Positions 17,965 to 55,137 of a stretch of 64,000 bases of DNA are shown here, one piece after another (positions within the stretch are counted from its first letter, which is position 1; each line of letters begins with the position of its first letter). The translations under genes and the position numbers were made by a program. The notes beneath the pieces were generated by a model. That model made no database searches and was not told the DNA's origin. It saw only the letters and a program-made list of their open reading frames with translations. Source of the DNA: Oligoflexia bacterium (GTDB taxonomy: Bacteria > Bdellovibrionota > UBA1018 > CAIPTA01); NCBI GenBank assembly GCA_023954355.1, contig JAMLID010000005.1, positions 38,092-102,091 on the forward strand, given 5' to 3'.

Positions 17965-19359
17965 ATGACAACCAAGCTTAACCCAGAAAAAATAAATCAC
18001 TCAAACACGCTTCAATCTAGTGTGTACTTTGTTTCGCTCGGTTGCCCCAAAAACCTTGTCGATTCACAAGTAATGCTAGGATTGCTCAAGTCAAACAAGT
18101 TTCAAATCACAGAAGAAGCAGAAACTGCTGATACTATAATTATCAACACCTGCTCTTTTATCGATTCTGCTAAAAAAGAATCTATTGATACCATTTTTGA
18201 AATGTCTCGCTTTCGAGAAGAGGGAGCACTAAAAAATTTAGTCGTGAGCGGCTGCATGGTTCAGCGTTACGCTAAAGAGCTTGAAGTTGAAATGCCTGAA
18301 GTTGACCTTTTTATTGGAACAGGTGAATACCACCGCGTAGTTGAGCTTTTACAGAAAAAAGCTCTTGGTAAACTTAAAACGAAAACATTTGTAGATATCC
18401 CTACCTTCATCCATACAGCCGAAACTCCAAGAATCAACACAGGGCTTAACCACTCGGCATTTCTGAAAATTTCTGAGGGTTGTGTACGTAACTGCTCTTT
18501 TTGTATTATTCCTGAATTACGTGGCCACAAAGTACGTTCTCGATCAGTAGACTCATTAGTATCTGAAGCAAAAAAGCTAGTATCAGATGGAGTAAAAGAA
18601 CTGAATCTGGTAGCGCAAGATCTCACTCACTATGGCATTGACAATAATTATAATGAGACATTAGCCGATTTACTCAGAGCGCTGGTACAAATTAAAGATT
18701 TACATTGGATTCGATTACACTACGCTTACCCAGATAACTTCACCGACGAAGTGATTGACATTATCGCTAAAGAAGAAAAAATTGTTAAATATTTAGATAT
18801 GCCCATTCAATATGGTGACGACAAAGTATTAAAACTGATGAATCGAAGAATCACCACTCAACAAATTCGCGAACGTATTGAGTCTCTTCGAAAAAAATGT
18901 CCAGAAATGGTGTTTAGAACAAATATTATTGTTGGTCACCCTGGAGAAACAGAAGAGAGTTACCAAAATACGAAACAATTTTTAGCTGACCTTGAGTTAG
19001 ATCATGTCGGTGTTTTTAAATATTCTTTAGAAGAAGGTACCCCGTCTTTTAGACTAGCTGAGAAAATTGGCTCTGTTCCAGAAGAACAAAGCCAAAAAAG
19101 ATATAATGAACTTATGGAGCTGCAACAGTCTATTTCGTGGAAAAAAAATAAAGCCATGGTAGGAAAAACCATATACGTACTAGTAGAAGGACTATCGAGA
19201 GAAAGTGATCTCTTACTTCAAGGACGCTGGGCTGGCCAAGCACAAGAAATCGACGGCGTAATTCTAATCAACGATGGAGATGCCAAGGTAGGTGAAATGG
19301 TAAAAGTAGAAATCACCGAAGCACTTCCCTATGATTTATTGGGAAGGATTGTGCCTTGA
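17965..19359 (+). CDS. rimO: Ribosomal protein S12 methylthiotransferase RimO.
   Basis: VYFVSLGCPKNLVDSQ (MTTase N-terminal domain), radical-SAM CxxxCxxC (EGCVRNCSFC), and a TRAM domain. Confidence 0.85.
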   Translation: MTTKLNPEKINHSNTLQSSVYFVSLGCPKNLVDSQVMLGLLKSNKFQITEEAETADTIIINTCSFIDSAKKESIDTIFEMSRFREEGALKNLVVSGCMVQRYAKELEVEMPEVDLFIGTGEYHRVVELLQKKALGKLKTKTFVDIPTFIHTAETPRINTGLNHSAFLKISEGCVRNCSFCIIPELRGHKVRSRSVDSLVSEAKKLVSDGVKELNLVAQDLTHYGIDNNYNETLADLLRALVQIKDLHWIRLHYAYPDNFTDEVIDIIAKEEKIVKYLDMPIQYGDDKVLKLMNRRITTQQIRERIESLRKKCPEMVFRTNIIVGHPGETEESYQNTKQFLADLELDHVGVFKYSLEEGTPSFRLAEKIGSVPEEQSQKRYNELMELQQSISWKKNKAMVGKTIYVLVEGLSRESDLLLQGRWAGQAQEIDGVILINDGDAKVGEMVKVEITEALPYDLLGRIVP

Positions 19360-26693: not shown

Positions 26694-27632
26694 ATGAAAA
26701 TTGAACAAAAAATACCCGTCAATATTCATTATTTACTCGTAAATGAAGCCTGCCCCGCTGATTTGTTTATTTTTTTCCGAGGGCAATATGCTCCTCTACG
26801 AAAAGCTCAAGAAGCATTAGAGCCAAAAATTATTGAGAAAATTCTTCTTACTAAATCACCTTTTTTCTATGTGAATCCAAGCGACTGGCCACAATGGAAA
26901 AAATGGATTGACGCTAGATATAAAAAAAACACAAGTAGCTCTTCAGATACTGCATCTAAAAAAAACACAGAAGAAGACTCTCTTTTTGGAAATAAACGAG
27001 CAGAGTTTCTAAGTTACGCAAGAAAAACTCTTCACCCTAGAGACTCTTCTTCCTCTCGAACAGAACAGCAAATGGACCATGCACTAAATGCGATTGAAAA
27101 AGTTATTCGAACACCTTTATTGGATTGGTATTTTAATCAATTTCACGAACCACCTGATTTATTTCAACATAATGCTAGGGTTACATTTGGTGTTGCAACC
27201 TTTTGCCTTATAAACAGTATCAAAACTGATTACGCTCTTGAAGAACTCATCCACTCTTGCATCATCCATGAGCTTGAGGGAGATCCAAAAGAAACCTCTA
27301 AAAAAGTCGCTTCACAAACGACCCTTCAGATTATGGAAAAAAAGAAATACTCTGTGCCAAAAAAGGTTTTAGACCTGATCAAAATTCAAGATGAACTCTA
27401 TTCAGGAAAAGGATCACCGAAAAACTTAAAAGGAGAAGATGTACCGTATGCTATTCGTATATTTTCTTTATTTAACCTTTTTGACCATTACAGAGTTAAT
27501 ACATCCGGCACAAGAAGATCGCGCTTTGACAGAGTTAAAAAAAGCATGGAATCTCGCAAGGATGATTTCGACCCTGTGCTATGGACACTTTTCTGGTCTT
27601 ACTGGGAAGAACAAGTGGAAGGAATCTCATGA
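26694..27632 (+). CDS. Degenerate HD-GYP-like domain protein (HD changed to HE, GYP to GSP), likely non-catalytic.
   Basis: HNARVTFGVATF..CIIHELEG....YSGKGSPKNLKGEDVPYAIRIFSLFNLFDHY aligns to the HD-GYP core (H..RVA...HD.GK...WDGSGYP.GLKGE.IP..ARI..VADVFDAL) with the metal-binding residues substituted. The N-terminal half is Ser/Lys-rich and low-complexity. Confidence 0.55.
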   Translation: MKIEQKIPVNIHYLLVNEACPADLFIFFRGQYAPLRKAQEALEPKIIEKILLTKSPFFYVNPSDWPQWKKWIDARYKKNTSSSSDTASKKNTEEDSLFGNKRAEFLSYARKTLHPRDSSSSRTEQQMDHALNAIEKVIRTPLLDWYFNQFHEPPDLFQHNARVTFGVATFCLINSIKTDYALEELIHSCIIHELEGDPKETSKKVASQTTLQIMEKKKYSVPKKVLDLIKIQDELYSGKGSPKNLKGEDVPYAIRIFSLFNLFDHYRVNTSGTRRSRFDRVKKSMESRKDDFDPVLWTLFWSYWEEQVEGIS

Positions 27633-29077
27633 GTCAAGAACTAAAAATAGACTTTTTCCAAACAACTCAACATATATCTCCAGCAATTTTTTCAACACTA
27701 GAAAAATTCTCTCACAAGCTTTTGGATCCATTCTCTAAAGTAATCAGTGAGCAAAAATCTTCATCTTCAGCTGTTTTTGTGAGAAAAGAAATCACAATAG
27801 AAAATCAAATTGTAGCTGTATTAGAATGTGAAGCAACTAATTTAGATTGGCTTCTTAACGTAATTAAACTCGACCTAGAAAAAAATATTGAACTAGCAAA
27901 AATCTCTGTAGAAAGAGAATCTGAATTAATTTTAAAAAAAGATATTTCTTATCTGTCTGAGATCTCAGAATCATCTGATAATAATTTAGAAAACTGCCTA
28001 CGTGAAATCTTAAGATTAGCGCAATCACATGTTTGGGTCGAGTCAGCGTCTATATTCGGTATACGTGATGGTTATACACTAGAAGGACTAATGGGAGTTG
28101 GTGGTGGAAAAAATCAACCTGAGTGGACTATGGATATGTCTACTATAGCAGGAAAAACCGCTGCAGAAAGAAAGCTATATCTATCTGAAAATCCAGCAAA
28201 AGATCCTTTCTTTAAAACTAAAGAAAATTCCGTTTTACCAAGAAACTTATTATGCATACCCCTTATTTTTTCAGATACTCTTGTAGGGGTTATCAATTTT
28301 TCAAACTCTATAGGTAGTCATTTCACTGAAGAAAAGATTACTATTGCAAAAAAGTTCGCTGACCTTACTGCAAGAATTTTAGAAAGAATTTTTTTAAAGC
28401 AAAGAATGCAATCGTTTGAAAAAACATCAGGCAATTTGGGCAAATATCTTTCGAATAAAGTTGCACGCTCAATGTCTGAAAAAGACTCTCTGGCTCTTGG
28501 AGGTGCAGAAAAACGAGTTGTTTGTTTATTTTCTGATATTAGAAACTACACTTCAATTTCAGAGGATATTTCTCCTCAAGACTTAGTCAGTTTACTTAAT
28601 TTTTATTTTGAGCGTATGCACGAGGTCATAGAAAAATACGAAGGTACGCTAGATAAAATTGTCGGTGATCTTGTTATGGCTGTTTGGAATATTCCCTACG
28701 ACCAGCCAGACCCAGAACTCATGGCGATGAAAGCAGCCTTAGAGATGCAAAAAGAAATGATGAAGTCGGTTCGACCAGAATGGGCCAAACGTGGCGTAGA
28801 AAAAGTAGGTATTGGTATTGGAGTAAACGCAGGGCAGGCTATTGTAGGTAACCTTGGATCAAGTCGATTTATGAATTATACCGTTGTTGGTGATACCGTA
28901 AACACAGCACAGCGACTTGAGTCGAAGGCTCGCTCTGGCGAAATATGGATGGCAGAATCTATTTTTTCTTTTGTAAATGGAAAAATTGAAAAACCCTTGC
29001 GTAAGGAAGTCGACATCCGACTCAAAGGCAAAGACCAAAGCATTAATGCCTTTGTTTACCAGCCTTACTCCTATTAA
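27629..29077 (+). CDS. GAF-domain class III nucleotidyl (adenylate/guanylate) cyclase.
   Basis: GAF signature (LCIPLIFSDTLVGVINFSN). CHD motifs VVCLFSDIRNYTSISE, VGDLVMAVWN, GIGVNAGQAIVGNLGS and VVGDTVNTAQRLES. It overlaps the upstream gene with ATGA. Confidence 0.8.
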   Translation: MSQELKIDFFQTTQHISPAIFSTLEKFSHKLLDPFSKVISEQKSSSSAVFVRKEITIENQIVAVLECEATNLDWLLNVIKLDLEKNIELAKISVERESELILKKDISYLSEISESSDNNLENCLREILRLAQSHVWVESASIFGIRDGYTLEGLMGVGGGKNQPEWTMDMSTIAGKTAAERKLYLSENPAKDPFFKTKENSVLPRNLLCIPLIFSDTLVGVINFSNSIGSHFTEEKITIAKKFADLTARILERIFLKQRMQSFEKTSGNLGKYLSNKVARSMSEKDSLALGGAEKRVVCLFSDIRNYTSISEDISPQDLVSLLNFYFERMHEVIEKYEGTLDKIVGDLVMAVWNIPYDQPDPELMAMKAALEMQKEMMKSVRPEWAKRGVEKVGIGIGVNAGQAIVGNLGSSRFMNYTVVGDTVNTAQRLESKARSGEIWMAESIFSFVNGKIEKPLRKEVDIRLKGKDQSINAFVYQPYSY

Positions 29078-44985: not shown

Positions 44986-46548
44986 TTACTCCCACTCAAT
45001 TGTAGCCGGTGGTTTAGTAGAAATATCGTAAACTACTCGATTTACGCCTCTGACTTCGTTTACGATTCGGTTAGAAATTTTCGCTAATACCTCATGCGGA
45101 AACCGAAACCAATCCGCCGTCATACCATCTTGACTAACAACTGCCCGTAGTGCCACAGGATATTCATAGGTTCTTCCATCACCCATAACTCCCACCGTAG
45201 AGATTGGAATTAGAATCGTTCCGGCCTGCCAAATTTGATCGTATAGTTTTGCTGCGCGAATTTCTGAAATATAAATAGAATCTGCCTCGCGAAGTATATC
45301 TAACTTTTCTTTTGTTACCTCTCCCAAACAACGAACAGCTAATCCAGGGCCAGGAAAAGGATGCCTACCTAAAATCTCAGAAGATACGCCTAATTCTTTG
45401 CCTAATTTTCTAACCTCATCCTTAAATAGTTCGCGTAAGGGCTCAATTAAAGAAAGCTTCATATTTTCTGGTAATCCACCAACATTATGATGGCTTTTAA
45501 TTGTTGCACTAAAACCACCACGGCCAGGAGGAGGCATAGATTCGATCACATCCGGATAAAGAGTTCCCTGCACTAACCAATCTAAGGTTTTTTCTCCTAC
45601 TTCCTTTGCCAAGCGTTTTTCTTCTCTTTGAAAAATCTCAATAAATGTCTTACCAATTGCCTTTCGCTTCTGTTCTGGATCTGTAAGGCCAGATAAAGCA
45701 GTTAAAAAGTCTTTTTGTGCATCGATTAGAGACACCTTAAGCCCTGAGTTTTCAAAACTCTTCATCACCTCTTGAGATTCATTTTTTCTCTGTAATCCGC
45801 TATCTATATATAAACAATGCAATCTACCAGGAATTGCTTTTTCAACTAAAGTTGCGGCGACTGTTGAGTCAACCCCCCCAGATAAAGCACAAATTGCATG
45901 CGCTGTTGTGCCTACTTGCTTTTGGATTTCAGAAATTTTTTCTTGTGCAAAGTTTTTTAGGTTCCATTCTTTTTTTGGATTACAAATTTCAATAAAAGCA
46001 TTTAATAACTTAGCACCTTCTTCTGTATGAGAGACTTCGGGATGAAACTGAAGAGCATAAATATTCTTCGAACGGTTTTCCATAGAAGCTAAAGATCCAC
46101 TTTCACTTTTAGCAACAATCTTAAAACCATCAGGTAACTGATCAACTTCATCACCGTGACTCATCCAAGTATTTAATGGAGATTTTTTTACCTGGGCAAA
46201 GAGCGGGCTTGAACTTTCTAGAATTTGAATCGGAGTAAGACCATATTCTCGGACTTTCGCGGGGCTCACTTTGCCACCAAGATTTTGAGCAAGCCACTGC
46301 ATTCCATAACAAACACCCAATAGTGGTACGCCTAAATTTAAAACAGCACGATCACATTGAGGTGCTTGAGAATCAAAAACCGAATGAGGGCCACCCGATA
46401 AAATAATTCCTTTAGGGTTATGAGCTTTAATCTCATGAAAGGGAGCATTTGCAGGGAGAATTTCGGTATACACCCCCACCTCACGCACACGTCTTGCGAT
46501 TAACTGAGTAAACTGACTGCCAAAGTCTAAAATTATGATTCGATCCAC
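44986..46548 (-). CDS. guaA: GMP synthase (glutamine-hydrolysing).
   Basis: GATase (ILDFGSQFTQLIARRVRE..GVCYGMQ) and ATP-PPase (SGGVDSTV), with the C-terminal dimerisation domain ending ..IEWE. Confidence 0.95.
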   Translation of the reverse strand: MDRIIILDFGSQFTQLIARRVREVGVYTEILPANAPFHEIKAHNPKGIILSGGPHSVFDSQAPQCDRAVLNLGVPLLGVCYGMQWLAQNLGGKVSPAKVREYGLTPIQILESSSPLFAQVKKSPLNTWMSHGDEVDQLPDGFKIVAKSESGSLASMENRSKNIYALQFHPEVSHTEEGAKLLNAFIEICNPKKEWNLKNFAQEKISEIQKQVGTTAHAICALSGGVDSTVAATLVEKAIPGRLHCLYIDSGLQRKNESQEVMKSFENSGLKVSLIDAQKDFLTALSGLTDPEQKRKAIGKTFIEIFQREEKRLAKEVGEKTLDWLVQGTLYPDVIESMPPPGRGGFSATIKSHHNVGGLPENMKLSLIEPLRELFKDEVRKLGKELGVSSEILGRHPFPGPGLAVRCLGEVTKEKLDILREADSIYISEIRAAKLYDQIWQAGTILIPISTVGVMGDGRTYEYPVALRAVVSQDGMTADWFRFPHEVLAKISNRIVNEVRGVNRVVYDISTKPPATIEWE

Positions 46549-46816: not shown

Positions 46817-47578
46817 ATGCGAACTCAACCCGAATTAGCGAAAATTTTGCTGTCTGAGTTAAAAATAAGAAGACAAAAGAATACTTCTTATTCTTTGCGT
46901 GCATTTGCTGCCTGGTTAGAACTTTCTCCATCCTCACTTTCAGAAATTATCGCGGGTAAGAGACAAGTTTCACCAAAGATGGCAAGAAAGCTTTCAGAGC
47001 GCTTGAAGCTTCCTTCCGAAAAGACTCATAAAATTATCAAGTCTATAGGTAAACGCTCTTGGTTACCTAAAAAATCTAACCAAAGTTATATTCAGCTTAA
47101 GAAAGACCAGTTTGAACTGATTACCTCTTGGGTACATTTTGCCATTTTATCTCTATTGAAGGTCGATTCTCCTGAAAAATCTATAAAGTGGATGAGTGAA
47201 AAGCTTTCTATTTCTGAAACACTTGCCCGAGAAGCAACTCAACGCTTAATAAGATTGCATTTAATCGCCGAAACCAGGCCTAATTATTTTGAGCGCACAT
47301 CAAATCCCATAAGCTCATCAGATGGCACTTTAGACTTGGCAATCCAAAAATCTCATCAAGAGACTTGCGATATCGCGCGAGACTCAGTCACTTCATTTCC
47401 TGTAGATGAAAGAGATTTCACTAGTATTACAATGGCGATTGATCCTAAAAAAATTCCAGAAGCTAAACAAATGATCAGAGCTTTTCGTGATCGTCTGTCC
47501 AGTGTTTTAGAAGACGGCGAAGTCAAAGATGTATATCGACTAAGTATCCAGCTTTTTCCACTGAGAGGAAAAAAATAA
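46817..47578 (+). CDS. HTH-domain protein of the TIGR02147/DUF4423-like family (putative regulator).
   Basis: N-terminal SLRAFAAWLELSPSSLSEIIAGKRQVSPKMARKLSERLKL is HTH-like. The family assignment is from memory of paralogous families in Fibrobacter/Bdellovibrio. Confidence 0.45.
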   Translation: MRTQPELAKILLSELKIRRQKNTSYSLRAFAAWLELSPSSLSEIIAGKRQVSPKMARKLSERLKLPSEKTHKIIKSIGKRSWLPKKSNQSYIQLKKDQFELITSWVHFAILSLLKVDSPEKSIKWMSEKLSISETLAREATQRLIRLHLIAETRPNYFERTSNPISSSDGTLDLAIQKSHQETCDIARDSVTSFPVDERDFTSITMAIDPKKIPEAKQMIRAFRDRLSSVLEDGEVKDVYRLSIQLFPLRGKK

Positions 47579-47579
47579 A

Positions 47580-48467
47580 ATGAAAATAATAGCGCTGACC
47601 ATAACTATTTTATTAACTCCTATCATCGTCCTAGCTGGCGATGTAGTAGGTAACGGAGGGCACGTAATCTCTTGTCTTGGCCAAGCGCCAATTACACTTG
47701 ACTATCACGAGCGAGAATATTTCAGCCCTGGATCACTAAATCACTTAGATGGAATGAGTCAGGATGAAGTTTTTCAATTTGCGCTCGCTAGATTAGGAAA
47801 TTCAGACTTCGCTTCGAAGCTTGAAAAAACCTGGTATGAAATAGGCGACACCAGCAAATGGATTCTAGTGCCACAACTTGAGTACATCACCGATCATGGT
47901 CTTTTTGTAAAGGTACCTAATGGCTGTAGTATAGTTCAAGCGGTTATTCGAGAAGGGCAAACCATCTATTTTAATAGCGATATAGCCTCGAAAATATCTA
48001 GTACCCAATTAGGTGTTTTAGCCTTACATGAGGTTATATATAAGCTTTCTAAAGAAAGTAAGGCAGCAGTAACATCAATGAAAGCAAGAGCTGCTGTTGC
48101 GACCTTATTATCGAAACGAATGCAACCAGACGATCATATTCAAATGATTGGCTATGAATTTAATTCTTTTGAGAGTCTTAAACTAGGAACTTTTTCAAGC
48201 ACTCAAAAAAATAAAAACACTAAGCTCGAGATTAATTTGATTTCAAAAAATTTAAAAAGAAAAGAGCTAACTTTTAGTATCGACAATAAAATAAAAGCGC
48301 TGATTAAAAATTCAACTAACTTAAGAAAGAATGAGATTTCATTTCATTGCAATGAAAAAAGTATTTGCTACCCAATAGGTGAAAGTAACTTAAAAGCTAT
48401 TAAACTCCATGGAGCAAATGAGTTTGATTTATTAATTGGGAAAAAAGAAATAAATTTTATTCAATAA
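47580..48467 (+). CDS. Hypothetical secreted protein, 295 aa.
   Basis: Signal peptide MKIIALTITILLTPIIVLAG. It starts 2 bp after the upstream gene. Confidence 0.55.
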   Translation: MKIIALTITILLTPIIVLAGDVVGNGGHVISCLGQAPITLDYHEREYFSPGSLNHLDGMSQDEVFQFALARLGNSDFASKLEKTWYEIGDTSKWILVPQLEYITDHGLFVKVPNGCSIVQAVIREGQTIYFNSDIASKISSTQLGVLALHEVIYKLSKESKAAVTSMKARAAVATLLSKRMQPDDHIQMIGYEFNSFESLKLGTFSSTQKNKNTKLEINLISKNLKRKELTFSIDNKIKALIKNSTNLRKNEISFHCNEKSICYPIGESNLKAIKLHGANEFDLLIGKKEINFIQ

Positions 48468-48471
48468 ATAA

Positions 48472-48512
48472 ACACCTAAGTACAAGCGGATGAGATTTGT
48501 GCACTTAGGTGT
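48472..48512. terminator. Hairpin with a 10-bp stem (ACACCTAAGT...ACTTAGGTGT) between convergent genes. Possible bidirectional terminator.
   Basis: Read from the sequence. The loop is 21 nt. The T-run is weak. Confidence 0.4.
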
Positions 48513-48534
48513 CTATTTAGTAGTTCATTTATAA

Positions 48535-48867
48535 TTATCTTACAAACTTACCACCGCGACATACATATCTAACCCATTGAGCAGCATCATTTTGGCCTGG
48601 CTCTAATACGTTGATCACTTCCCCTTCATTGCAAACAACTGTTTGTGTGGCACTAGAAGGTACATATCTACCGTTTGTACATGTGTATTCTACTCTTACA
48701 GAGCTGTCGTTATATGTAGGCTCGATAACAGTAATTTTGTGGCCTTCTTTACAAGCAACTGTACCGCTTTGATTTGGGATTGGGTTAACGTTCAACCCTG
48801 GCTCAGCTTCTGATGCAAATGCCTGCATAGATGAAATAAAAAGGGCTGCAATAAGTAATAGTTTCAT
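48535..48867 (-). CDS. Small secreted Cys-containing protein with an internal ~35-aa duplication.
   Basis: Signal peptide MKLLLIAALFISSMQAFA. Repeats VACKEGHKITVIEPTYNDSSVRVEYTCTNGRYV and VVCNEGEVINVLEPGQNDAAQWVRYVCRGGKFV. Confidence 0.6.
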   Translation of the reverse strand: MKLLLIAALFISSMQAFASEAEPGLNVNPIPNQSGTVACKEGHKITVIEPTYNDSSVRVEYTCTNGRYVPSSATQTVVCNEGEVINVLEPGQNDAAQWVRYVCRGGKFVR

Positions 48868-49057: not shown

Positions 49058-49477
49058 CTACAAAGCATCTCTAACACTACCCTCTTCGATCAAACCTTGC
49101 TCTGTATTGGTAAAATCAATCACCAAGCCATTTTGATAAGGAATGCTATATTTTAAATCGTCTTCTGTAGAAAACTCTTTATCCGGGCCAGCACTCACCC
49201 AGGAATATGCTTTCGAATAGGGTAAATCAATCACTTGAATTTGATACTCTGTTCCCCAGGCATCTACGAAACGATTTTTACTACCGAGAATATCGTAGAA
49301 TTCTTTTAATGTGGGTGGTTTTTTTCCTTCAAAAAGCTGCAAAGTTAAAAGAGAGAGTCTTTTTAATTGTAATTTTGTTTGTGCCTTGCCTGCATTTTTA
49401 TAAACAGAATGACCGATTAAAGTCATCTCGGCCCCTAAACACAAAAGGACCAATACTAAAAATACATAGCGTAGCAT
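49058..49477 (-). CDS. T2SS GspG-like pseudopilin-domain protein with a Sec-type leader in place of a prepilin leader.
   Basis: DAWGTEYQIQV..SAGPDKEFSTEDDLKYS resembles the GspG C-terminal core (DPWGNPY...S.GADG...DDI). The N-terminus MLRYVFLVLVLLCLGA is signal-peptide-like and has no G-FTLIE motif. Confidence 0.45.
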   Translation of the reverse strand: MLRYVFLVLVLLCLGAEMTLIGHSVYKNAGKAQTKLQLKRLSLLTLQLFEGKKPPTLKEFYDILGSKNRFVDAWGTEYQIQVIDLPYSKAYSWVSAGPDKEFSTEDDLKYSIPYQNGLVIDFTNTEQGLIEEGSVRDAL

Positions 49478-51436
49478 CTATAAAAATAGTTCCGGTCTCG
49501 AAACTAGTTTTTCCCATATGAGGTTATGAAAATCTACTTTTCCTACGGCCAATAGACCCGTGCCACCTGAAGATTGAAAGCTTGCATTCATACCGTTGGC
49601 GTATCCAAAACAATCATCAGCCTCTAAGGTAGTATCAGAAGCATCATCACCTAAATCAACTTTAACGCCTCCAGAATAAACCACTAAAAACTCTTCACTA
49701 TTCGCAGCAGCTTGAATATATTCACCATCTTTAAAAAACTGAAAGCGAAAGGTATCAATCAACTGCGCTTGCTCAATGGCTCGCAATTTAGAAAAAAGTG
49801 GGTGTCTACGGAAAAAACTCGTCAATCGTATCATTGCCTTTACTCTATCCGGTGAACCCATAGACTCAGCGAAACGATCAAAACCGTCTTTATTTAGTAC
49901 CAATACGATACAACCACCATCTGAAATAATTGAAGCAGTTCTTGGAACATCATCAATTAATGCAATTTCGCCAAACGCATCGCCTTCGCCTAAGTCTGCA
50001 AGAAAATGCGTCTTACCAGCAGGTTCTGCGTAATAGGCATTTGCAATCCCTTTAACTAGAACATAAAACTCGCTACCAACTTCTCCCTGATGCACAAGGT
50101 ATTCGCCTGACGCATAATATCTTGGGTTCATCTCATTTAAGAGCGCTAATCTTTCTTGATCATTCAAATAAGAAAAAAGAGGGATTTTCTCTAAAGCAGA
50201 CATTCTTTCTTCAAAACTAAGGCTATCTTTCTCTTTACCTTTTTCTACTACAACTTTATTTTTTCTAAAAAACGTTTGGTCTCTGAGAAATCCAACAACG
50301 AAAACCATTGCGGGAAAAACCAACGCACTCAAGAGCAGAAAAACTACAACTGAGGCCATTACTTGTAGCGTAAGATCTTCTTGCCCTGTTAAATCAGTAA
50401 CGACTTTTTCAGACAATACATCCCAAAACATTCTCGTAAAATCTAGCCATGCCAATAACCAAATAAATGAAACCAAAATACCAATGAGCATCTCTTTGCT
50501 TAAGCTGCCTTTTGTTTTAAAAATTTGTCTAAGGCCAGAAGATATAGATTCTGATAACTTATTGCGAACAAAAAGCGTGTGTATGAATGTTGCCCCATCA
50601 AAAGGCAAAAAAGGAGCTGCAAAAATTAGTGTTGCAAAGCTAATCCCGGCTACACAAAAGTAAACATTTTGCAGACTCAAAACATCTAACTGAAGTAATC
50701 CCACAGGGATAACCAATGTTGATAAAGAAGCTAGTATCCCAACAAGACTCAATAAAACTCTGGAGCGAACCCCTTCTAATTGCACTTCACGAAAGTCTGC
50801 CGTCGGAAAAACAAAACCCCAGTAAAAAGAAAATCGATGCTTTATGGTAGATCGCCCCAGACTCTCTACTAATGCTCCTTGAAATAAAGACCTCATCCAA
50901 ATCGCAACAGTTGCCGCCAAATAGATACAGATAAATAAATGTGAATAAGAAAAAACAATAAATGCCCCTTCATTGAGGTCTTCGTAGGGGAAATACAGTA
51001 AGCCTACCGTCGATAATATGGCAGCTAAAAAAATAATAAGACCCGGGCCACCCCATCGAATCAACCTGGCAAAAACACCGAAGCACAAAGCCGAAAATGC
51101 ATCTAAACCAGCAATTTCAATTTTTTTCTTATCTAACTCTAACTCCAAGGTAGCAGTATCGGATTCAATTTTTCTTCCGGTAATCGTGTTCACGTCTAAA
51201 ATCTGTAGTTTTTTTAATTTCGCTAAAACTGCTACACAAATTTTTATATGAGATTTTTTGGCAATTCCTATATTTGGCAACAAAAGCGCTAATAGTGTTT
51301 CTGATTCGTTTTGTTTTAAAAACTTAACTACTTCAAATTCTTCTATGGTTAATAGCTCTTGTTTTCTATTTTCCGGATTATAGATAACCACATGTTCGTC
51401 ATCGTATTGTCCTAACTCAAAAGGCTTCAACTGCAT
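49478..51436 (-). CDS. Polytopic membrane protein with tandem C-terminal cyclic-nucleotide-binding domains (one canonical, one degenerate).
   Basis: About 8 hydrophobic helices. cNMP motif GDAFGEIALIDDVPRTASIIS. The second CAP-like domain lacks the FGE..RTA motif. 652 aa. Confidence 0.7.
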   Translation of the reverse strand: MQLKPFELGQYDDEHVVIYNPENRKQELLTIEEFEVVKFLKQNESETLLALLLPNIGIAKKSHIKICVAVLAKLKKLQILDVNTITGRKIESDTATLELELDKKKIEIAGLDAFSALCFGVFARLIRWGGPGLIIFLAAILSTVGLLYFPYEDLNEGAFIVFSYSHLFICIYLAATVAIWMRSLFQGALVESLGRSTIKHRFSFYWGFVFPTADFREVQLEGVRSRVLLSLVGILASLSTLVIPVGLLQLDVLSLQNVYFCVAGISFATLIFAAPFLPFDGATFIHTLFVRNKLSESISSGLRQIFKTKGSLSKEMLIGILVSFIWLLAWLDFTRMFWDVLSEKVVTDLTGQEDLTLQVMASVVVFLLLSALVFPAMVFVVGFLRDQTFFRKNKVVVEKGKEKDSLSFEERMSALEKIPLFSYLNDQERLALLNEMNPRYYASGEYLVHQGEVGSEFYVLVKGIANAYYAEPAGKTHFLADLGEGDAFGEIALIDDVPRTASIISDGGCIVLVLNKDGFDRFAESMGSPDRVKAMIRLTSFFRRHPLFSKLRAIEQAQLIDTFRFQFFKDGEYIQAAANSEEFLVVYSGGVKVDLGDDASDTTLEADDCFGYANGMNASFQSSGGTGLLAVGKVDFHNLIWEKLVSRPELFL

Positions 51437-51455: not shown

Positions 51456-52943
51456 TTATGATCCCATCCAATAATTTGGAGCTTCTTTTGTAATATCAAC
51501 ATTATGCGGATGGCTTTCTCGTAAACCCGCTGAAGATATTTTTACAAATCTAGCTTTCTCGTACAAGGCCTCTATAGTTTCAGCGCCAACATAACCCATT
51601 CCCGATCGCAAGCCTCCGAGAAGCTGGTGTACTACCGCTGAAATAGTTCCTCTATAGGGAACTCGTCCCTCAATTCCCTCTGGAACCAATTTAGAATCAT
51701 CCGTATTTGATTGCGCATAGCGATCTTTTGATCCGAGCCTCATTGCAGCTAAAGATCCCATTCCACGATAAACTTTATACGAGCGGCCTTGAAATAGAAC
51801 CAACTCACCAGGAGACTCATCTGTACCGGCAAATAAATTCCCTATCATCACACATGAGGCGCCAGCAGCTAACGCTTTAACTACATCGCCTGAGAATTTG
51901 ATTCCGCCATCTGCAATAACAGGAATATTTGCTTTTCTAGCTACAGAGACCGCATCCATAACTGCAGACAACTGTGCAACGCCAATCCCTGCAACAACTC
52001 TTGTTGTACAAATCGAACCAGGACCAATGCCAACCTTTACTGCATCTGCACCAGCATCAATTAGTGCTTTTGTTCCATCGGCTGTAGCTACGTTTCCTGC
52101 AATAATATCGATTTGAGAAAATTGTTTTTTTAATTTTTCTACTAACTTTAAAATCCCTTGAGAATGCCCATGCGCACTATCGACAAAAAGTGCATCTACG
52201 CCAGCTTCTGCTAAAGCACTCGCGCGATCTAATACATCTTCACTAACGCCAATCGCAGCACCTACCACTAATCGCCCGAATTTGTCTTTATTAGAATTTG
52301 GGTATTTCATGGATTTCTCAATATCTTTAATAGTGATTAATCCTTTAAGACGGTTTTTATCATCCACTACTAAAAGTTTTTCAATGCGGTGTTTGTGCAA
52401 TAATTTTTTTGCTACATCTCTATCTGTACCTACAGGACAAGTTACTAGCTTTTCACTCGTCATATAGTCAGAGATAGGCGCTGACTCATCTTCTAAAAAT
52501 CGCACATCTCGGTTCGTTACTATTCCCACAAGAGTCCCGTTAGCTTTGCCATCTTTGGTCACTGGCACACCAGAAATTTTATATGTGGCCATTAACTTGA
52601 GAGCATCTCTTACCGGCTGATCAGGAGAAGTAGTGATCGGATCTAAAATCATCCCACTCTCACTTTTCTTCACTCGTGAAACTTCGAACGACTGCTCTTC
52701 GATCGTCATATTTTTATGAATCACGCCTAGTCCGCCTTCTTGAGCTAATGAAATAGCCGTAGCAGACTCAGTCACTGTATCCATTGCTGCAGAAAGAATC
52801 GGAACACTAAGAGAAAGATTTTTTGTAAGCTTTGTTTTTAAACTAACTTCGTTAGGCAATACTGAGCTTGGCCCAGGTAAAAGAAGTACATCATCAAAAG
52901 TTAATGTTTCACGAAAAGAGGTAGGCTTATCTTGGGTGTTCAT
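51456..52943 (-). CDS. guaB: IMP dehydrogenase.
   Basis: LTFDDVLL.P, tandem CBS domains, and the catalytic loop [11 protein letters not shown]. Confidence 0.95.
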
Positions 52944-53133
52944 GACTTACATTAGCACAACAAAATAGTTCTAGTCGACTATAAGCTTGGTTAAAATTTT
53001 CCTTAGATCTCATTCTTTACTTCATCTTTTGAAGTTAGGGTGTGGTTTCAATTTAGAAGCGTTATGAGAAAGACACTAAACACAAGCGAACACCTACACT
53101 CTAGCGTAGGCGCTTTTCGCAGATCAGCAAACG

Positions 53134-53661
53134 TTACTGCTGTATCTCGAAAGATTTTCGATATTCCGCCACATACGAATGGTAGTTTTTCCAGCCTTGC
53201 TGGATCATTTCTTCTTTTTCACTCTCCGTTAATGCACGAACAGCTTTTGCCGGAGAACCTAAAATCAAATGGCCAGAAGGATACTTTTTACCTGGAGGAA
53301 GCAAAGCTCCAGCTGCAACCACACAGTGATCTCCTACCTCTACACCATCTAAAAGAATTGCACCCATTCCAATTAAGCAATCATTCCCTACCGTACAGCC
53401 ATGCAATAGCGCCTTATGGCCTATAGTTACTCGATCACCTATCGTTAATGGAAAACGCCCGTTCGTTACATGCAGAACACTGCCATCTTGAACATTGGTA
53501 TACTCACCTATTTTTATCCAATGAACATCTCCACGAGCCACCGCTTGAAACCAAATACTAGAATGTGCACCCATCGTCACATCACCAAGAACATCAGCAG
53601 TTGGTGCAATCCAAGCCGTAGCATCGAGCTTAGGTTTTTTTCCAAAACAATTCGCAATCAT
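53134..53661 (-). CDS. Gamma-class carbonic anhydrase / hexapeptide-repeat protein (YrdA/PaaY-like).
   Basis: Left-handed beta-helix hexapeptide repeats, with His ligands in the ..HV..HGC pattern. Confidence 0.75.
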   Translation of the reverse strand: MIANCFGKKPKLDATAWIAPTADVLGDVTMGAHSSIWFQAVARGDVHWIKIGEYTNVQDGSVLHVTNGRFPLTIGDRVTIGHKALLHGCTVGNDCLIGMGAILLDGVEVGDHCVVAAGALLPPGKKYPSGHLILGSPAKAVRALTESEKEEMIQQGWKNYHSYVAEYRKSFEIQQ

Positions 53662-55088
53662 AAAAGAGATAACTCTCCCTTCAGTGCATAGGTATTTGCA
53701 TCTGTAATTTTCACTGGCAAAATACGCCCTTCTAATTGAGAGGGTTTTAAATCACTACCTTCTAGTGAAAAGTTTACGATTCTCCAACCAGCTGTTCTTC
53801 CGGTAGCAAGATTTGCATTCGTTTTCGATTCTCCCTCACAAAGTACTTCTTCTACTTTACCTACTTGCTCGGTATTTTTGCGTGCTTGAATCTCTGCTTG
53901 AACCTCAGAGAGAATCGCATGCCGCCTTTTCTTTTCTTGGTCAAGAATTGGGTCTCCCAATGATAAAGCCGCGGTACCAGGACGCGCAGAATACATATAT
54001 GCATAAAGAGAGTCGAATTCGACTTGCTTGACTAGATCTAAAGTTTGCTCAAAGTCTTCTTCTGTTTCTGTAGGAAAACCCACAATTAAATCTGTGGTAA
54101 TGGCAATACCAGGAACTCTTCGTCTTAGCTCAGCTAAACGTGCCTTATAAAGCTCTATAGGAACATATCTTTTCATTTTCTTTAAAACCGTAGGTGAACC
54201 GCTCTGTACGGGTAAATGAAGATGGGGCACTAAGCGATTTAAATTTGCATGGCAATCAATCATTTCTTCGTCAAAATCTTTCGGATGAGATGTCGTATAG
54301 CGAATACGCTGAATACCTTTAGGTCGACCACCCTCACCTCTAGGATGAGTTGTTCCATTCGCTTCCATTTCATCTGCCATTTTTTGTAATGCTATCAAGA
54401 GCGCAGGAAAAGTTTGCCCTACTTTTTTTCCTCCAAGGGATTTTCCGTAAGAGTTTACATTTTGACCAAGAAGGGTAATTTCTACAATTCCTAAAAGCGC
54501 TAAGCGCTTTACGTCTTGAACGATTTCTTCAAGCCTACGACTTTTTTCTCGACCCCTCGTAAATGGAACAATACAGTACGTACAAAAATTATCACAACCC
54601 TTCATAATATTTACAAAAGCCGTAGATTTTCCAGGTAACACTTTTGTTTCTATCGAGTAGTCATTAGAGGGATCGAATCCCACTTGCATGATTTTTTCTT
54701 CCCCATGATTTAAGCGATAGAGAATTTCAGGCAGTTGATCAATTGAATCAGTGCCCATCACAAAATCTAAATGAGGAGCTCCTTGAAACACTTCTTTTTT
54801 GTCTTGCTGAGCTACACATCCAGCAAAGCCAATCTTTAGGTTGGGATTTTTCTTTTTACCGTCTTTTTTTAAAAGCCCCATAGACGAATAGGCCTTCTGC
54901 TCAGATTTATCTCGAATCGAACAGGAATTAAAAATCACAAGATCAGCATCTTCAATCTGTTCTGCTGGGTTATAGCCTTCGGTAACCAATAAAGAAGCCA
55001 TACGATCGGTATCGTGCATATTCATCTGACAGCCAAAAGTTTTAATAAAATATTTACCTTTGGTGTCTTGTGCGAGGGTATTTTCCAT
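53658..55088 (-). CDS. miaB: tRNA-2-methylthio-N6-dimethylallyladenosine synthase MiaB.
   Basis: KYFIKTFGCQMNMHDTDRM, radical-SAM CDNFCTYC, and a TRAM domain. The start was chosen at MENTLAQD. Confidence 0.85.
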   Translation of the reverse strand: MENTLAQDTKGKYFIKTFGCQMNMHDTDRMASLLVTEGYNPAEQIEDADLVIFNSCSIRDKSEQKAYSSMGLLKKDGKKKNPNLKIGFAGCVAQQDKKEVFQGAPHLDFVMGTDSIDQLPEILYRLNHGEEKIMQVGFDPSNDYSIETKVLPGKSTAFVNIMKGCDNFCTYCIVPFTRGREKSRRLEEIVQDVKRLALLGIVEITLLGQNVNSYGKSLGGKKVGQTFPALLIALQKMADEMEANGTTHPRGEGGRPKGIQRIRYTTSHPKDFDEEMIDCHANLNRLVPHLHLPVQSGSPTVLKKMKRYVPIELYKARLAELRRRVPGIAITTDLIVGFPTETEEDFEQTLDLVKQVEFDSLYAYMYSARPGTAALSLGDPILDQEKKRRHAILSEVQAEIQARKNTEQVGKVEEVLCEGESKTNANLATGRTAGWRIVNFSLEGSDLKPSQLEGRILPVKITDANTYALKGELSLL

Positions 55089-55137
55089 GGATGCGTTATA
55101 CCAAAAATTCAAAAATAAAAAAGAAAGAGACTAAAAA

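What the first reader, a model, noticed from the sequence alone, without database searches (positions are those of the whole stretch)
49058..51436. guaB-linked operon: membrane protein with tandem cNMP-binding domains, then a pseudopilin-like protein with a Sec leader
Directly downstream of guaB (19-nt gap, same strand) lies a 652-aa polytopic membrane protein. Its C-terminus carries one canonical CAP-type cNMP-binding domain (FGEIALIDDVPRTASI) and one degenerate copy. Its stop abuts the start of a 139-aa protein whose C-terminal half resembles the GspG pseudopilin core (DAWGTEYQ...SAGPDKEFSTEDDL) and whose N-terminal helix resembles the pilin stem. However, that protein has a classical signal peptide rather than a G/FTLIE prepilin leader. 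Neither the cNMP-gated membrane module nor the soluble pseudopilin-like protein is a standard type II secretion or pilus component. The GAF cyclase at 27629 could supply the ligand.
Basis: partly seen in the sequence, partly recalled or inferred. Interest (0 to 1): 0.6.

Follow-up and report, generated by a model that had tools for sequence, protein, structure and literature searches.

The report
Dead site-2 protease with pseudopilin-like partner
Between the two GMP-synthesis genes guaB and guaA lies a conserved, uncharacterised gene pair: a cyclic-nucleotide-binding membrane protein built on a site-2 protease core that has lost its zinc site, and a small exported protein derived from the type II secretion pseudopilin GspG that cannot be processed like a pilin.

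Summary
On the minus strand, guaB (51456-52943) is followed after 19 nt by a 652-aa protein X (49478-51436). The stop codon of X abuts the start of a 139-aa protein Y (49058-49477).

X has four parts:
- a small N-terminal alpha/beta domain;
- a six-helix membrane core;
- one canonical cNMP-binding domain;
- one degenerate cNMP-binding copy.

The membrane core is homologous to M50/site-2 proteases. This rests on profile-profile probability 99.1% to HExxH-bearing relatives, whose own profile hits the M. jannaschii S2P structure at E 6e-8. In X, however, HExxH has become R-S-L-F-Q, with the Arg invariant. Only the Asp of the LDG motif survives, so X is a pseudoprotease.

Y keeps the DPWG...SAGPD...T.DD core and the calcium-ligand residues of GspG. 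None of 19 family members has a prepilin leader or the Glu5-type residue. The N-terminus looks more like a membrane anchor than a cleaved Sec leader.

Y follows X in 16 of 17 Bdellovibrionota loci and in three distant relatives, one of them a Myxococcota MAG. The guaB/guaA position was seen only in Bdellovibrionota.

My inference, not shown here, is that X is a cNMP-gated holder of Y's transmembrane helix. I rate it a new variant of known kinds, of moderate to good interest.

The parts
51456..52943 (-). guaB (IMP dehydrogenase), the upstream gene; 19-nt gap to X
   Evidence: Pfam IMPDH 2e-162 and TIGR01302 9e-194. The gap was read directly. guaB lies upstream of the X homologue in every Bdellovibrionota locus that has upstream DNA.
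49478..51436 (-). X: 652-aa inner-membrane protein made of an N-terminal alpha/beta domain, an S2P-like pseudoprotease core, CNB1 and a degenerate CNB2
   Evidence: ORF. About 65 full-length homologues at 32-55% identity, all from Bdellovibrionota/Oligoflexia MAGs. AF2 pLDDT 84.2, pTM 0.74.
51167..51436 (-). X residues 1-90: cytoplasmic domain of three strands plus three helices, possibly PqqD/RRE-like
   Evidence: AF2 secondary structure E7-10, E15-19, E26-30, H31-42, H48-52, H61-76. The domain is shared with HExxH-bearing relatives. The only whole-domain PDB profile hits are the lasso-peptide RRE proteins TfuB1 (E 0.036) and TbiB1 (E 1.4). This is weak evidence.
50252..51124 (-). X residues 105-395: six-helix membrane core with a beta-hairpin after the second helix; M50/S2P homologue
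50879..50893 (-). R182-S-L-F-Q186: occupies the columns of the HExxH zinc-binding and catalytic motif
   Evidence: Column-for-column alignment with HE..H of relatives and in the hhalign output. R182 is invariant in 36 of 36 sequences.
50594..50614 (-). P275-F-L-P-F-D280-G281: remnant of the S2P NxxPxxxLDG motif (third zinc ligand Asp kept)
   Evidence: Aligned with NLNPLLELDGYY of relatives. P275 and D280 are invariant.
49853..50209 (-). CNB1 (residues 410-528): canonical cyclic-nucleotide-binding domain with cassette F488GEIALIDDVPR499TAS502
49481..49846 (-). CNB2 (residues 531-652): degenerate CNB-homology domain without the cassette Glu and Arg
   Evidence: hhalign of CNB1 against CNB2: probability 95.4%, E 2e-8. 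Relatives L015, P0111 and P0113 have two Pfam CNB hits in the same positions.
49058..49477 (-). Y: 139-aa GspG-derived protein with an N-terminal hydrophobic helix and no prepilin leader; its start abuts the stop of X
   Evidence: Family alignment A3. GspG links.
49400..49468 (-). Y residues 4-26: hydrophobic N-terminal segment (signal anchor or Sec leader) interrupted by Glu17 and His23
   Evidence: mean Kyte-Doolittle hydropathy (KD) of the best 19-residue window is 2.24. Family members have uncharged runs of 18-28 residues. 0 of 19 have the G-[FM]-T-L-[IL]-E motif. The NCBI record starts the gene at Met18, which removes this segment.
49151..49276 (-). Y residues 68-109: GspG core (D72-A-W74-G75 ... 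S95-A-G97-P-D99 ... T104-E-D106-D107), including the calcium-site residues
   Evidence: PDB profile alignment to PulG 1t92. hhalign to P0092. Invariant columns. GspG calcium ligands D117, T122 and D125 (PMC3396595, PMC13081927) correspond to Y D99, T104 and D107.
44986..46548 (-). guaA (GMP synthase), the downstream boundary of the conserved block; here separated from Y by three extra genes
   Evidence: guaA lies downstream of X-Y in related loci.

Best explanation
X and Y form a two-protein inner-membrane module.

Shown: X is a site-2-protease (M50) homologue whose zinc and catalytic motif HExxH has been replaced by R-x-x-x-Q/R/K, while the Asp of the LDG motif is kept. It is flanked on the cytoplasmic side by a small N-terminal alpha/beta domain and, at the C-terminus, by one ligand-competent and one degenerate cyclic-nucleotide-binding domain.

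Shown: Y is derived from the major pseudopilin GspG. Its beta-sheet core and calcium-loop residues are kept. It has an N-terminal hydrophobic helix, but no prepilin-peptidase site and no Glu5.

Inferred: Y inserts N-in/C-out, which is the topology of S2P substrates. X, unable to cut, uses the former substrate groove to hold Y's transmembrane helix, as pseudoproteases do with clients. The invariant membrane-embedded Arg182/Asp280 pair would replace the metal site. Binding of cAMP or cGMP to CNB1 would then shift the cytoplasmic domains that gate that groove, in the way CBS or PDZ domains gate active S2Ps. That shift would couple cytoplasmic second-messenger level to the state, stability or availability of the periplasmic GspG-like domain, or carry a signal in the opposite direction.

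The position between guaB and guaA gives co-expression with guanine-nucleotide synthesis in Bdellovibrionota, but it is not part of the core module.
For: S2P homology of X:
- An exhaustive profile search of the membrane domain finds 116 relatives.
- 7 of 10 relatives sampled carry sub-threshold Pfam Peptidase_M50 hits.
- hmmalign places R182/S183/Q186 in the H/E/H columns and P275/D280 in the NxxPxxxLDG columns.
- hhalign of A5 against A7 gives probability 99.1%, E 7.8e-19.
- The A7 profile hits MjS2P 3b4r at E 6.4e-8, and the only other hits are RseP and SpoIVFB.

CNB domains.

GspG origin of Y. The calcium ligands match those described in PMC3396595 and PMC13081927.

Coupling of X and Y:
- The stop and start codons abut in the window.
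- Y follows X in 16 of 17 Bdellovibrionota loci.
- Y also follows X in three distant pseudo-S2P+CNB relatives whose membrane domains are very divergent from X's (membrane-profile E 1e-10 to 1e-6 in a search of 1.84 billion representatives). One of these is a Myxococcota MAG. The gaps there are 2-4 nt.
- A fourth distant locus is cut after 50 codons of a Y-like start.
- The one HExxH-bearing CNB relative examined has no Y.

Precedent for an S2P pseudoprotease that stabilises other proteins: Arabidopsis EGY3 (PMC10978774).
Against: - No direct evidence of X-Y contact. No complex prediction or co-variation analysis was possible.
- One family member (L006) lacks Y, so X can exist alone.
- An Opitutales relative also has no Y-like gene downstream.
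- X itself does not reach any Pfam or NCBIfam M50 threshold.
- Whether Y's N-terminus is cleaved is unknown. If it is removed by signal peptidase, the 'held helix' would be only a leader peptide.
- The ligand (cAMP or cGMP) and the output are unknown.
- The inference that only dead variants have Y rests on one active counter-example.
Confidence: 0.4

Rival explanations
1. X and Y are co-expressed but do not touch. X is a cNMP-sensing pseudoprotease that scaffolds or regulates other membrane proteins, or an active S2P elsewhere in the genome. Y is an independent periplasmic calcium-binding protein.
For: L006 and the Opitutales relative have X without Y. Non-prepilin GspG-like proteins also occur in other architectures, for example fused to Sel1 repeats, so they may not need an X-type neighbour, although their gene neighbourhoods were not examined. 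EGY3-type pseudoproteases act on unrelated clients.
Against: Y sits immediately downstream of X, with abutting or overlapping stop and start codons or gaps of at most ~20 nt. This holds across lineages whose X proteins are barely alignable. That pattern is typical of subunits made in fixed ratio.
Confidence: 0.25
2. X is still a protease with a non-canonical active site. On cNMP binding it cuts Y's anchor and releases a soluble GspG-like domain into the periplasm, as in regulated intramembrane proteolysis.
For: The overall S2P architecture, the conserved Asp280 and several invariant membrane residues (Y164, W326, W330, D332) are kept. Y has the N-in/C-out single-pass topology of S2P substrates. 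Relatives with intact HExxH plus tandem CNB domains exist (P0117).
Against: Both zinc-ligand histidines and the catalytic Glu are replaced in all 36 aligned family members and in many distant relatives (H to R, E to S/A/T, H to Q/R/K). No known M50 enzyme works without them.
Confidence: 0.1
3. The module belongs functionally to guanine-nucleotide metabolism. X would sense cGMP or another guanine-derived nucleotide and feed back on transport, or on GuaB/GuaA.
For: The pair lies between guaB and guaA in every Bdellovibrionota locus with flanking DNA. An Opitutales relative lies directly after purA. The cassette has Thr after the Arg (PRTAS), as in cGMP-binding PKG and CNG sites (from general knowledge, not tested).
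Against: The distant X-Y pair with sequenced flanks on both sides, L085, has no gua or pur neighbours, and neither does L049 in the 2.4 kb upstream and 4.5 kb downstream that are available; L050 is too short to tell. HCN channels also have R-T-A and prefer cAMP. X has no transporter or enzyme domain.
Confidence: 0.1
4. Y is a working (pseudo)pilin subunit that enters a type II secretion or type IV pilus filament by an unusual route. X would be its dedicated, non-cleaving 'prepilin peptidase-like' chaperone or loader.
For: Y has a GspG-type core with calcium-site residues. Its long N-terminal hydrophobic helix is followed by a conserved helical stretch (LRRLxxLTL), like the pilin stem.
Against: There is no Gly(-1), no N-terminal Phe/Met and no Glu5 in 0 of 19 proteins. 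These residues are needed for processing and for subunit packing in all known filaments. No secretion or pilus genes lie nearby. Y is about 20 residues shorter than GspG between the helix and the DPWG strand.
Confidence: 0.07
5. X is a cyclic-nucleotide-gated channel or transporter that merely reuses an S2P-like helical bundle.
Against: The membrane domain has no similarity to channel or transporter families. The PDB profile search gives only a K2P match at E 0.17, which is noise. The homology to S2P is specific. No pore-type motif is present.
Confidence: 0.05

Closest known systems
Site-2 proteases / peptidase family M50 (M. jannaschii S2P 3B4R, SpoIVFB, RseP)
   Same: Homologous six-helix membrane core with a beta-hairpin after the 'HExxH' helix. 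The Pro and Asp of the NxxPxxxLDG motif are conserved. Cytoplasmic regulatory domains are appended, as with the CBS domain of SpoIVFB.
   Different: HExxH is replaced by R-S-L-F-Q, so the protein cannot be a zinc protease. It has tandem CNB domains instead of CBS or PDZ domains, and an extra N-terminal alpha/beta domain. It does not reach the Pfam or NCBIfam thresholds.
Intramembrane pseudoproteases (Arabidopsis EGY3 among S2Ps; iRhoms among rhomboids)
   Same: The intramembrane protease fold is retained and the catalytic motif is lost. The presumed role is client binding or stabilisation rather than cleavage (PMC10978774, PMC3149277).
   Different: This one is bacterial, is fused to second-messenger sensor domains, and has a dedicated, genetically linked single-pass partner.
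Major pseudopilin GspG/PulG/EpsG of type II secretion (PF08334, TIGR01710)
   Same: The DPWG...S-x-G-P-D-G...T-x-D-D-I core is shared. The calcium-ligand positions D117, T122 and D125 are conserved as D99, T104 and D107. An N-terminal hydrophobic helix is followed by an amphipathic helix.
   Different: There is no class III signal (no G/F-T-L-I-E, no N-methylation site, no Glu5). The alpha-beta loop is shorter. Y is not encoded with gsp genes; its partner is X.
Cyclic-nucleotide-regulated membrane proteins (MloK1/SthK channels, SLC9C1, CNB-fused MFS and ABC transporters)
   Same: C-terminal cytoplasmic CNB domain(s) regulate a membrane domain. The cassette carries G-E...R-T-A.
   Different: The membrane domain is neither a channel nor a transporter. 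The second CNB has lost its ligand-binding residues.
PqqD-like RiPP recognition elements (lasso-peptide B1 proteins TfuB1, TbiB1)
   Same: Three strands followed by three helices. These are the only full-domain PDB profile hits for the N-terminal domain.
   Different: The E-values are not significant (0.036 and 1.4). There is no Pfam PqqD hit and no RiPP genes nearby.

Membership tests
Peptidase M50 / site-2 protease | HExxH zinc-binding and catalytic motif in a transmembrane helix | tested here: not met
   X has W-M-R182-S-L-F-Q186 in exactly these columns. R182 is invariant and no His or Glu occurs there in 36 family members.
Peptidase M50 / site-2 protease | NxxPxxxLDG motif supplying the third zinc ligand (Asp) | tested here: inconclusive
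   P275, D280 and G281 are kept and invariant, but Asn is replaced by Ala and Leu by Phe. The Asp is present without its metal partners.
Peptidase M50 / site-2 protease | Homology of the membrane core (sequence profile) | tested here: met
   hhalign of A5 against HExxH-bearing relatives (A7): probability 99.1%, E 7.8e-19, 245 columns. The A7 profile hits 3b4r at E 6.4e-8, and RseP and SpoIVFB are the only other hits. X alone gives no Pfam PF02163 hit at E<=1.
Peptidase M50 / site-2 protease | S2P fold (helical core plus membrane-reentrant beta-hairpin) | tested here: inconclusive
Cyclic-nucleotide-binding domain (PF00027) | Beta-roll with a phosphate-binding cassette containing G-E and R-[ST]-A | tested here: met
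Type II secretion major pseudopilin GspG | Class III signal peptide: G(-1), F/M(+1), T-L-[IL]-E with Glu5 (PF07963 N_methyl) | tested here: not met
   0 of 19 Y-type proteins match the motif. There is no N_methyl Pfam hit. The true pseudopilin P0092, found by the same profile, does have it.
Type II secretion major pseudopilin GspG | T2SSG globular domain (PF08334 / TIGR01710) | tested here: inconclusive
   The window's Y gives no Pfam hit and TIGR01710 E 0.017 (15 bits against a cutoff of 88.85). At family level, 7 of 11 members hit PF08334 (best 1.1e-5), and PDB GspG chains are hit at E 2e-5 to 2e-3. Only about 40 C-terminal residues align.
Type II secretion major pseudopilin GspG | Calcium-binding loop G-x-D-G-x-x-[GN]-[TN]-x-D-D | tested here: met
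   The family consensus S-A-G-P-D-G-x-x-G-T-x-D-D-I fits the motif. The window's Y has G97-P-D99-K-E-F-S-T104-E-D106-D107, with all three side-chain ligand positions kept and two non-ligand deviations. Calcium binding itself was not tested.
Type II secretion major pseudopilin GspG | Encoded with gsp or pil assembly genes | tested here: not met
   The neighbours are guaB, guaA, miaB, dnaE and similar genes in all loci.
PqqD-like RRE domain | Winged-helix of three strands plus three helices, with sequence or fold similarity to PqqD or B1 proteins | tested here: inconclusive
   The AF2 topology fits. The profile against PDB gives TfuB1 E 0.036 and TbiB1 E 1.4 as the only whole-domain hits. There is no Pfam hit. 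No separate fold search of this domain was possible.

The most novel reading that the evidence does not exclude
A second-messenger-gated intramembrane 'pseudo-protease receptor': an S2P that has given up catalysis and now reversibly captures the transmembrane stem of a pilin-fold protein. If so, cAMP/cGMP levels would control the display, release or oligomerisation of a periplasmic GspG-like domain without prepilin peptidase or an assembly ATPase. This would be a previously undescribed way both to use the pilin fold and to transmit a cyclic-nucleotide signal across the inner membrane. It appears conserved in Bdellovibrionota and was also seen in one Myxococcota MAG.
Probability: 0.2. Interest if true: 0.8.

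Novelty: new variant of a known kind. Interest (0 to 1): 0.58.

Why it matters
Bacterial intramembrane pseudoproteases are essentially unstudied. The known examples (iRhoms, EGY3) are eukaryotic or plastid proteins. This one comes with a built-in ligand sensor and a genetically defined candidate client, which makes it a tractable system for asking how a dead intramembrane protease handles a transmembrane helix.

It also shows that the GspG pseudopilin fold, calcium site included, has been recruited outside filament systems with a non-prepilin N-terminus.

The family lies in a housekeeping operon across predatory or predator-related Bdellovibrionota. Cyclic-nucleotide signalling is important in these organisms, but few receptors are known. 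On the practical side, current annotation ('cyclic nucleotide-binding domain-containing protein' and 'hypothetical protein', the latter with a probably wrong start) misses all of this.

Tried and rejected
- A profile of the X membrane domain against PDB sequences found nothing (best hit a K2P channel, E 0.17). The link to S2P needed intermediate HExxH-bearing relatives.
- The afdb50 fold library was unavailable.
- The single-sequence search with Y found only itself. Family members had to be taken from the loci of X homologues.
- The promoter and terminator scan gave fewer promoter-like sites than the shuffled controls and nothing decisive. A terminator-like hairpin lies upstream of guaB (53089-53114, minus strand), and a weak one inside the 3' end of X.
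- The literature search for an M50+cNMP fusion found nothing.
- The N-terminal-domain PDB search was topped by spurious repeat matches to designed beta-trefoils.
- The Archangium, Myxococcales, Opitutus and Actinomycetota hits of the genome scan match only the CNB region and do not carry the X membrane domain. The exceptions are L015 and L059, which are weak.
- I considered a lipoprotein signal in Y and rejected it. The Cys13 context V-L-L-C does not fit a lipobox, and the Cys is not conserved.
Full report
**1. What is in the sequence**

On the minus strand the window carries three consecutive genes:
- guaB at 51456-52943 (Pfam IMPDH 2e-162, TIGR01302 9e-194);
- a 652-aa ORF at 49478-51436, called X here;
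- a 139-aa ORF at 49058-49477, called Y here.

The guaB stop is followed by 19 nt and then the ATG of X. The TAG of X is immediately followed by the ATG of Y. The identical X protein is in NCBI as 'cyclic nucleotide-binding domain-containing protein' from an Oligoflexia MAG. Y is annotated there as a 122-aa hypothetical protein starting at Met18.

**2. Conservation and context**

X has about 65 full-length homologues at 32-55% identity, all from Bdellovibrionota/Oligoflexia MAGs.

In contigs carrying these homologues the gene order miaB - hexapeptide transferase - guaB - X - Y - guaA - dnaE recurs. A scripted check with HMMs of Y and with the window's guaB, guaA, miaB and dnaE gave three results:
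- Y lies immediately downstream of X in 16 of 17 distinct loci that have downstream DNA. L006 (39% identity) has X but goes straight on to guaA.
- guaB is upstream wherever upstream DNA is present.
- guaA is downstream wherever downstream DNA is present.

The window differs only in having three extra genes between Y and guaA (46817-48867).

The Y proteins are only 18-33% identical to each other. They share invariant D72, W74, G75, G97, D99 and D106.

**3. The cyclic-nucleotide-binding part of X**

Residues 439-524 match Pfam cNMP_binding at E 2.8e-23. The phosphate-binding cassette FGEIALIDDVPRTAS is invariant across the family.

Residues 531-652 are a second, degenerate copy. Family profiles of the two halves align at hhalign probability 95.4%, E 2e-8, over 102 columns. 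The cassette helix is shortened and its Glu and Arg are absent (CFGYA-N). More distant relatives (L015, P0111, P0113) have two canonical Pfam CNB hits at the same positions.

**4. The membrane domain of X is a dead site-2 protease**

X alone hits no membrane-protein family. A profile of residues 100-400 finds nothing in PDB sequences.

An exhaustive HMMER search with that profile (A5) over 1.84 billion representatives found 116 proteins at E<=1e-3. Fifteen of them (E<=1e-30) are the family itself. The rest have many architectures.

Seven of ten distant hits sampled carry sub-threshold Peptidase_M50 matches (E 4.6e-6 to 5e-3). One of them, P0117, combines this with two CNB domains.

Aligning all hits to the profile shows two correspondences:
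- X's W-M-R182-S-L-F-Q186 sits column for column under x-x-H-E-x-x-H of these relatives.
- X's A-A-P275-F-L-P-F-D280-G sits under N-L-N-P-L-L-E-L-D-G.

A profile of 15 HExxH-bearing relatives (A7) aligns to A5 with hhalign probability 99.1%, E 7.8e-19, over 245 columns. A7 itself hits the M. jannaschii S2P structure 3b4r at E 6.4e-8. Its only other PDB matches are RseP and SpoIVFB.

Both zinc-ligand histidines and the catalytic Glu are replaced in all 36 aligned family members (H to R, invariant; E to S/A/T/G; H to Q/R/K). They are also replaced in a large share of the 600-710-aa distant hits of which the three scanned against Pfam (P0111, P0113, L015) carry CNB domains. X therefore cannot be a zinc metalloprotease. 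The retained, invariant Asp280 opposite an invariant membrane-embedded Arg182 suggests a salt bridge replacing the metal site. That is my inference; I could not inspect the model coordinates.

Pseudoprotease members of intramembrane protease families are known from eukaryotes: EGY3 lacks HExxH and stabilises other proteins (PMC10978774), and iRhoms are the rhomboid example (PMC3149277). My literature searches found no bacterial example of an S2P-type pseudoprotease, nor any M50+cNMP fusion.

**5. The N-terminal domain of X**

Residues 1-90 are modelled as three strands followed by three helices. They align with the N-terminal regions of the HExxH-bearing relatives.

The only PDB profile hits covering the whole domain are the lasso-peptide leader-binding proteins TfuB1 (E 0.036) and TbiB1 (E 1.4). 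The top of the hit list is repeat-driven noise. A PqqD/RRE-like peptide-binding domain is therefore a lead, not a finding.

**6. Y is derived from the major pseudopilin GspG but is not a prepilin**

Y alone gives only TIGR01710 E 0.017. The family-level evidence is stronger:
- The family profile retrieves proteins with Pfam T2SSG: P0090 (which itself lacks a prepilin motif) at E 2.8e-7 in a 5.8-billion-sequence database, and P0092, a true pseudopilin with N_methyl plus T2SSG and G|MTLVE.
- The first five PDB hits are all GspG/PulG/EpsG chains (E 2.1e-5 to 2.1e-3).
- 7 of 11 members hit Pfam T2SSG.
- hhalign to P0092 gives 96.9%, E 1.7e-10.

The match covers only the DPWG strand through the C-terminal loop, about 40 residues.

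That loop is the GspG calcium site. In E. coli GspG (3G20, PGPDGVPNTEDD) and in OutG and PulG, the side-chain ligands are D117, T122 (S122 in PulG) and D125 (PMC3396595, PMC13081927). In Y these positions are D99, T104 and D107. D99 is invariant, D107 is nearly invariant, and T104 is always Ser or Thr in the family.

None of 19 Y-type proteins has the G-[FM]-T-L-[IL]-E leader or an equivalent Glu5. Their N-termini have one to three basic residues, then an uncharged hydrophobic run of 18-28 residues in the other Bdellovibrionota members (mean hydropathy 1.7-2.8 over 19 residues), and then a conserved helical stretch (LRRLxxLTL). This is the length of a membrane anchor rather than of a Sec h-region. 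It mirrors the pilin stem.

The window's Y has Glu17 and His23 inside this segment. A polar residue, often His, recurs at the Glu17 column in the family. The three distant Y proteins have shorter runs (12-18 residues) and could be cleaved leaders.

I conclude that Y is exported N-in/C-out. Whether the helix is removed remains open. The NCBI start at Met18 would delete this conserved segment and is probably wrong.

**7. The X-Y pair is the conserved unit**

Three distant pseudo-S2P+2xCNB proteins were examined. Their membrane domains match the X profile only at E 1e-10 to 1e-6.
- P0113 (locus L049) is followed after 2 nt by a 160-aa protein with MWGTPFAY...LSAGPDKMFQTDDDI (Y-HMM E 1.3e-10).
- P0111 (locus L050) is followed after 2 nt by a 121-aa protein with DMWGYYYMY...SSAGPDPNDASDDI (Y-HMM E 7.3e-7).
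- P0124 (locus L085, a Myxococcota MAG) is followed after 4 nt by a 135-aa protein with DQWGSPYQL...SCGPDKQCNTDDDI.

A fourth locus (L084) ends 50 codons into a Y-like start.

L085, the one of these pairs with sequenced flanks on both sides, has no gua genes nearby, and none is seen in the DNA available around L049; L050 is too short to tell. The guaB/guaA position therefore appears to be a lineage feature of Bdellovibrionota. An Opitutales relative of X, with no Y, lies directly after purA.

The single HExxH-bearing CNB relative whose locus I could read (P0117) has no Y. It is followed by a small Cys-rich protein and preceded by an FHA-GGDEF protein. With n=1, this is only a hint that Y goes with the dead variants.

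**8. Mechanism**

Shown: the domain identities, the loss of the catalytic motif, the retention of a ligand-competent cassette, the GspG origin of Y together with its lack of a prepilin signal, and the tight, widely conserved X-Y gene coupling.

Inferred: Y's single N-in/C-out helix is the kind of substrate S2Ps bind. X, unable to cut, would hold it. The CNB tandem, sitting where CBS or PDZ domains gate active S2Ps, would make that interaction depend on cAMP or cGMP. This would couple cytoplasmic nucleotide signalling to a periplasmic calcium-stabilised pilin-fold domain, or the reverse.

I put about 0.85 on the identity statements and about 0.3-0.4 on the direct-binding, gated-holder mechanism. 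Section 9 covers what was checked and did not help; the rival mechanisms are assessed in the Rival explanations section.

**9. Other context**

A GAF-adenylate/guanylate cyclase exists at 27581-29077. It overlaps an HD_5-domain protein at 26694-27632. It is 20 kb away and not syntenic with X-Y in the loci examined, so it is only a candidate ligand source.

The rest of the window that I sampled is housekeeping: obg, proS-like, ppdK, smc, gltX, dnaE and glpX. I found no type II secretion or type IV pilus genes among the ORFs scanned.

**10. Verdict**

It is a phylum-wide, unannotated two-gene module that combines a cNMP-sensing S2P pseudoprotease with a non-prepilin GspG-like partner. Each part belongs to a known kind. 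The dead S2P with CNB domains, the pseudopilin fold without a class III signal, and their conserved pairing are new as far as my searches show.

Noticed in passing
window 46817-48867: Three genes lie between Y and guaA that are absent from this position in the related loci. They are a DUF4423/TIGR02147 HTH protein (46817-47578, plus strand), an adjoining 295-aa protein with an N-terminal signal-like segment and no family (47580-48467, plus strand), and a 110-aa secreted-looking protein made of two Cys-containing ~35-residue repeats (48535-48867, minus strand). This looks like a small insertion into the guaB-X-Y-guaA block.
   Followed up: partly
window 49426-49477 (Y codons 1-17): The NCBI record for the identical MAG protein starts Y at Met18 (122 aa). 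That start removes the hydrophobic N-terminal segment conserved in all family members, so it is probably a mis-called start. The first ATG abuts the stop of X.
   Followed up: yes
window 26694-29077: An HD_5-domain protein (26694-27632) overlaps the start of a GAF + class III nucleotide cyclase (27581-29077). This is a possible phosphodiesterase/cyclase pair and a candidate source of the CNB1 ligand, but it is not linked to X-Y in other genomes.
   Followed up: partly
L015 1965-5527 (Opitutales MAG JAJFLR010000113.1): A 650-aa relative of X (24% identity, two canonical CNB domains) lies directly downstream of purA (adenylosuccinate synthetase) and has no Y-type gene after it. This is a second association of the family with a purine-nucleotide biosynthesis gene.
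   Followed up: partly
L051 3937-8144: The HExxH-bearing, tandem-CNB relative P0117 (977 aa) is preceded by an FHA-GGDEF protein and followed by a 67-aa Cys-rich (zinc-ribbon-like) protein instead of a Y-type protein. This suggests that the active and dead branches have different partners.
   Followed up: no
proteins P0090, P0091, P0093, P0097, P0098, P0100: GspG-like domains without a prepilin leader occur more widely, including 260-265-aa versions fused to a C-terminal Sel1 repeat. Their N-termini and first helix resemble the distant Y proteins of L049, L050 and L085.
   Followed up: no
Y alignment A3, column of window Glu17: A polar residue (His in 4 of 11 sequences, otherwise Glu, Gln, Asn, Ser or Thr in most) recurs in the middle of the hydrophobic N-terminal helix of Y. 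It could pair with the invariant Arg182/Asp280 in the membrane core of X. This is not tested.
   Followed up: no
window 17965-19359 and 53658-55112: The window holds two UPF0004 + radical SAM + TRAM methylthiotransferase paralogues (MiaB/RimO type). The second belongs to the conserved miaB-hexapeptide-guaB block.
   Followed up: no
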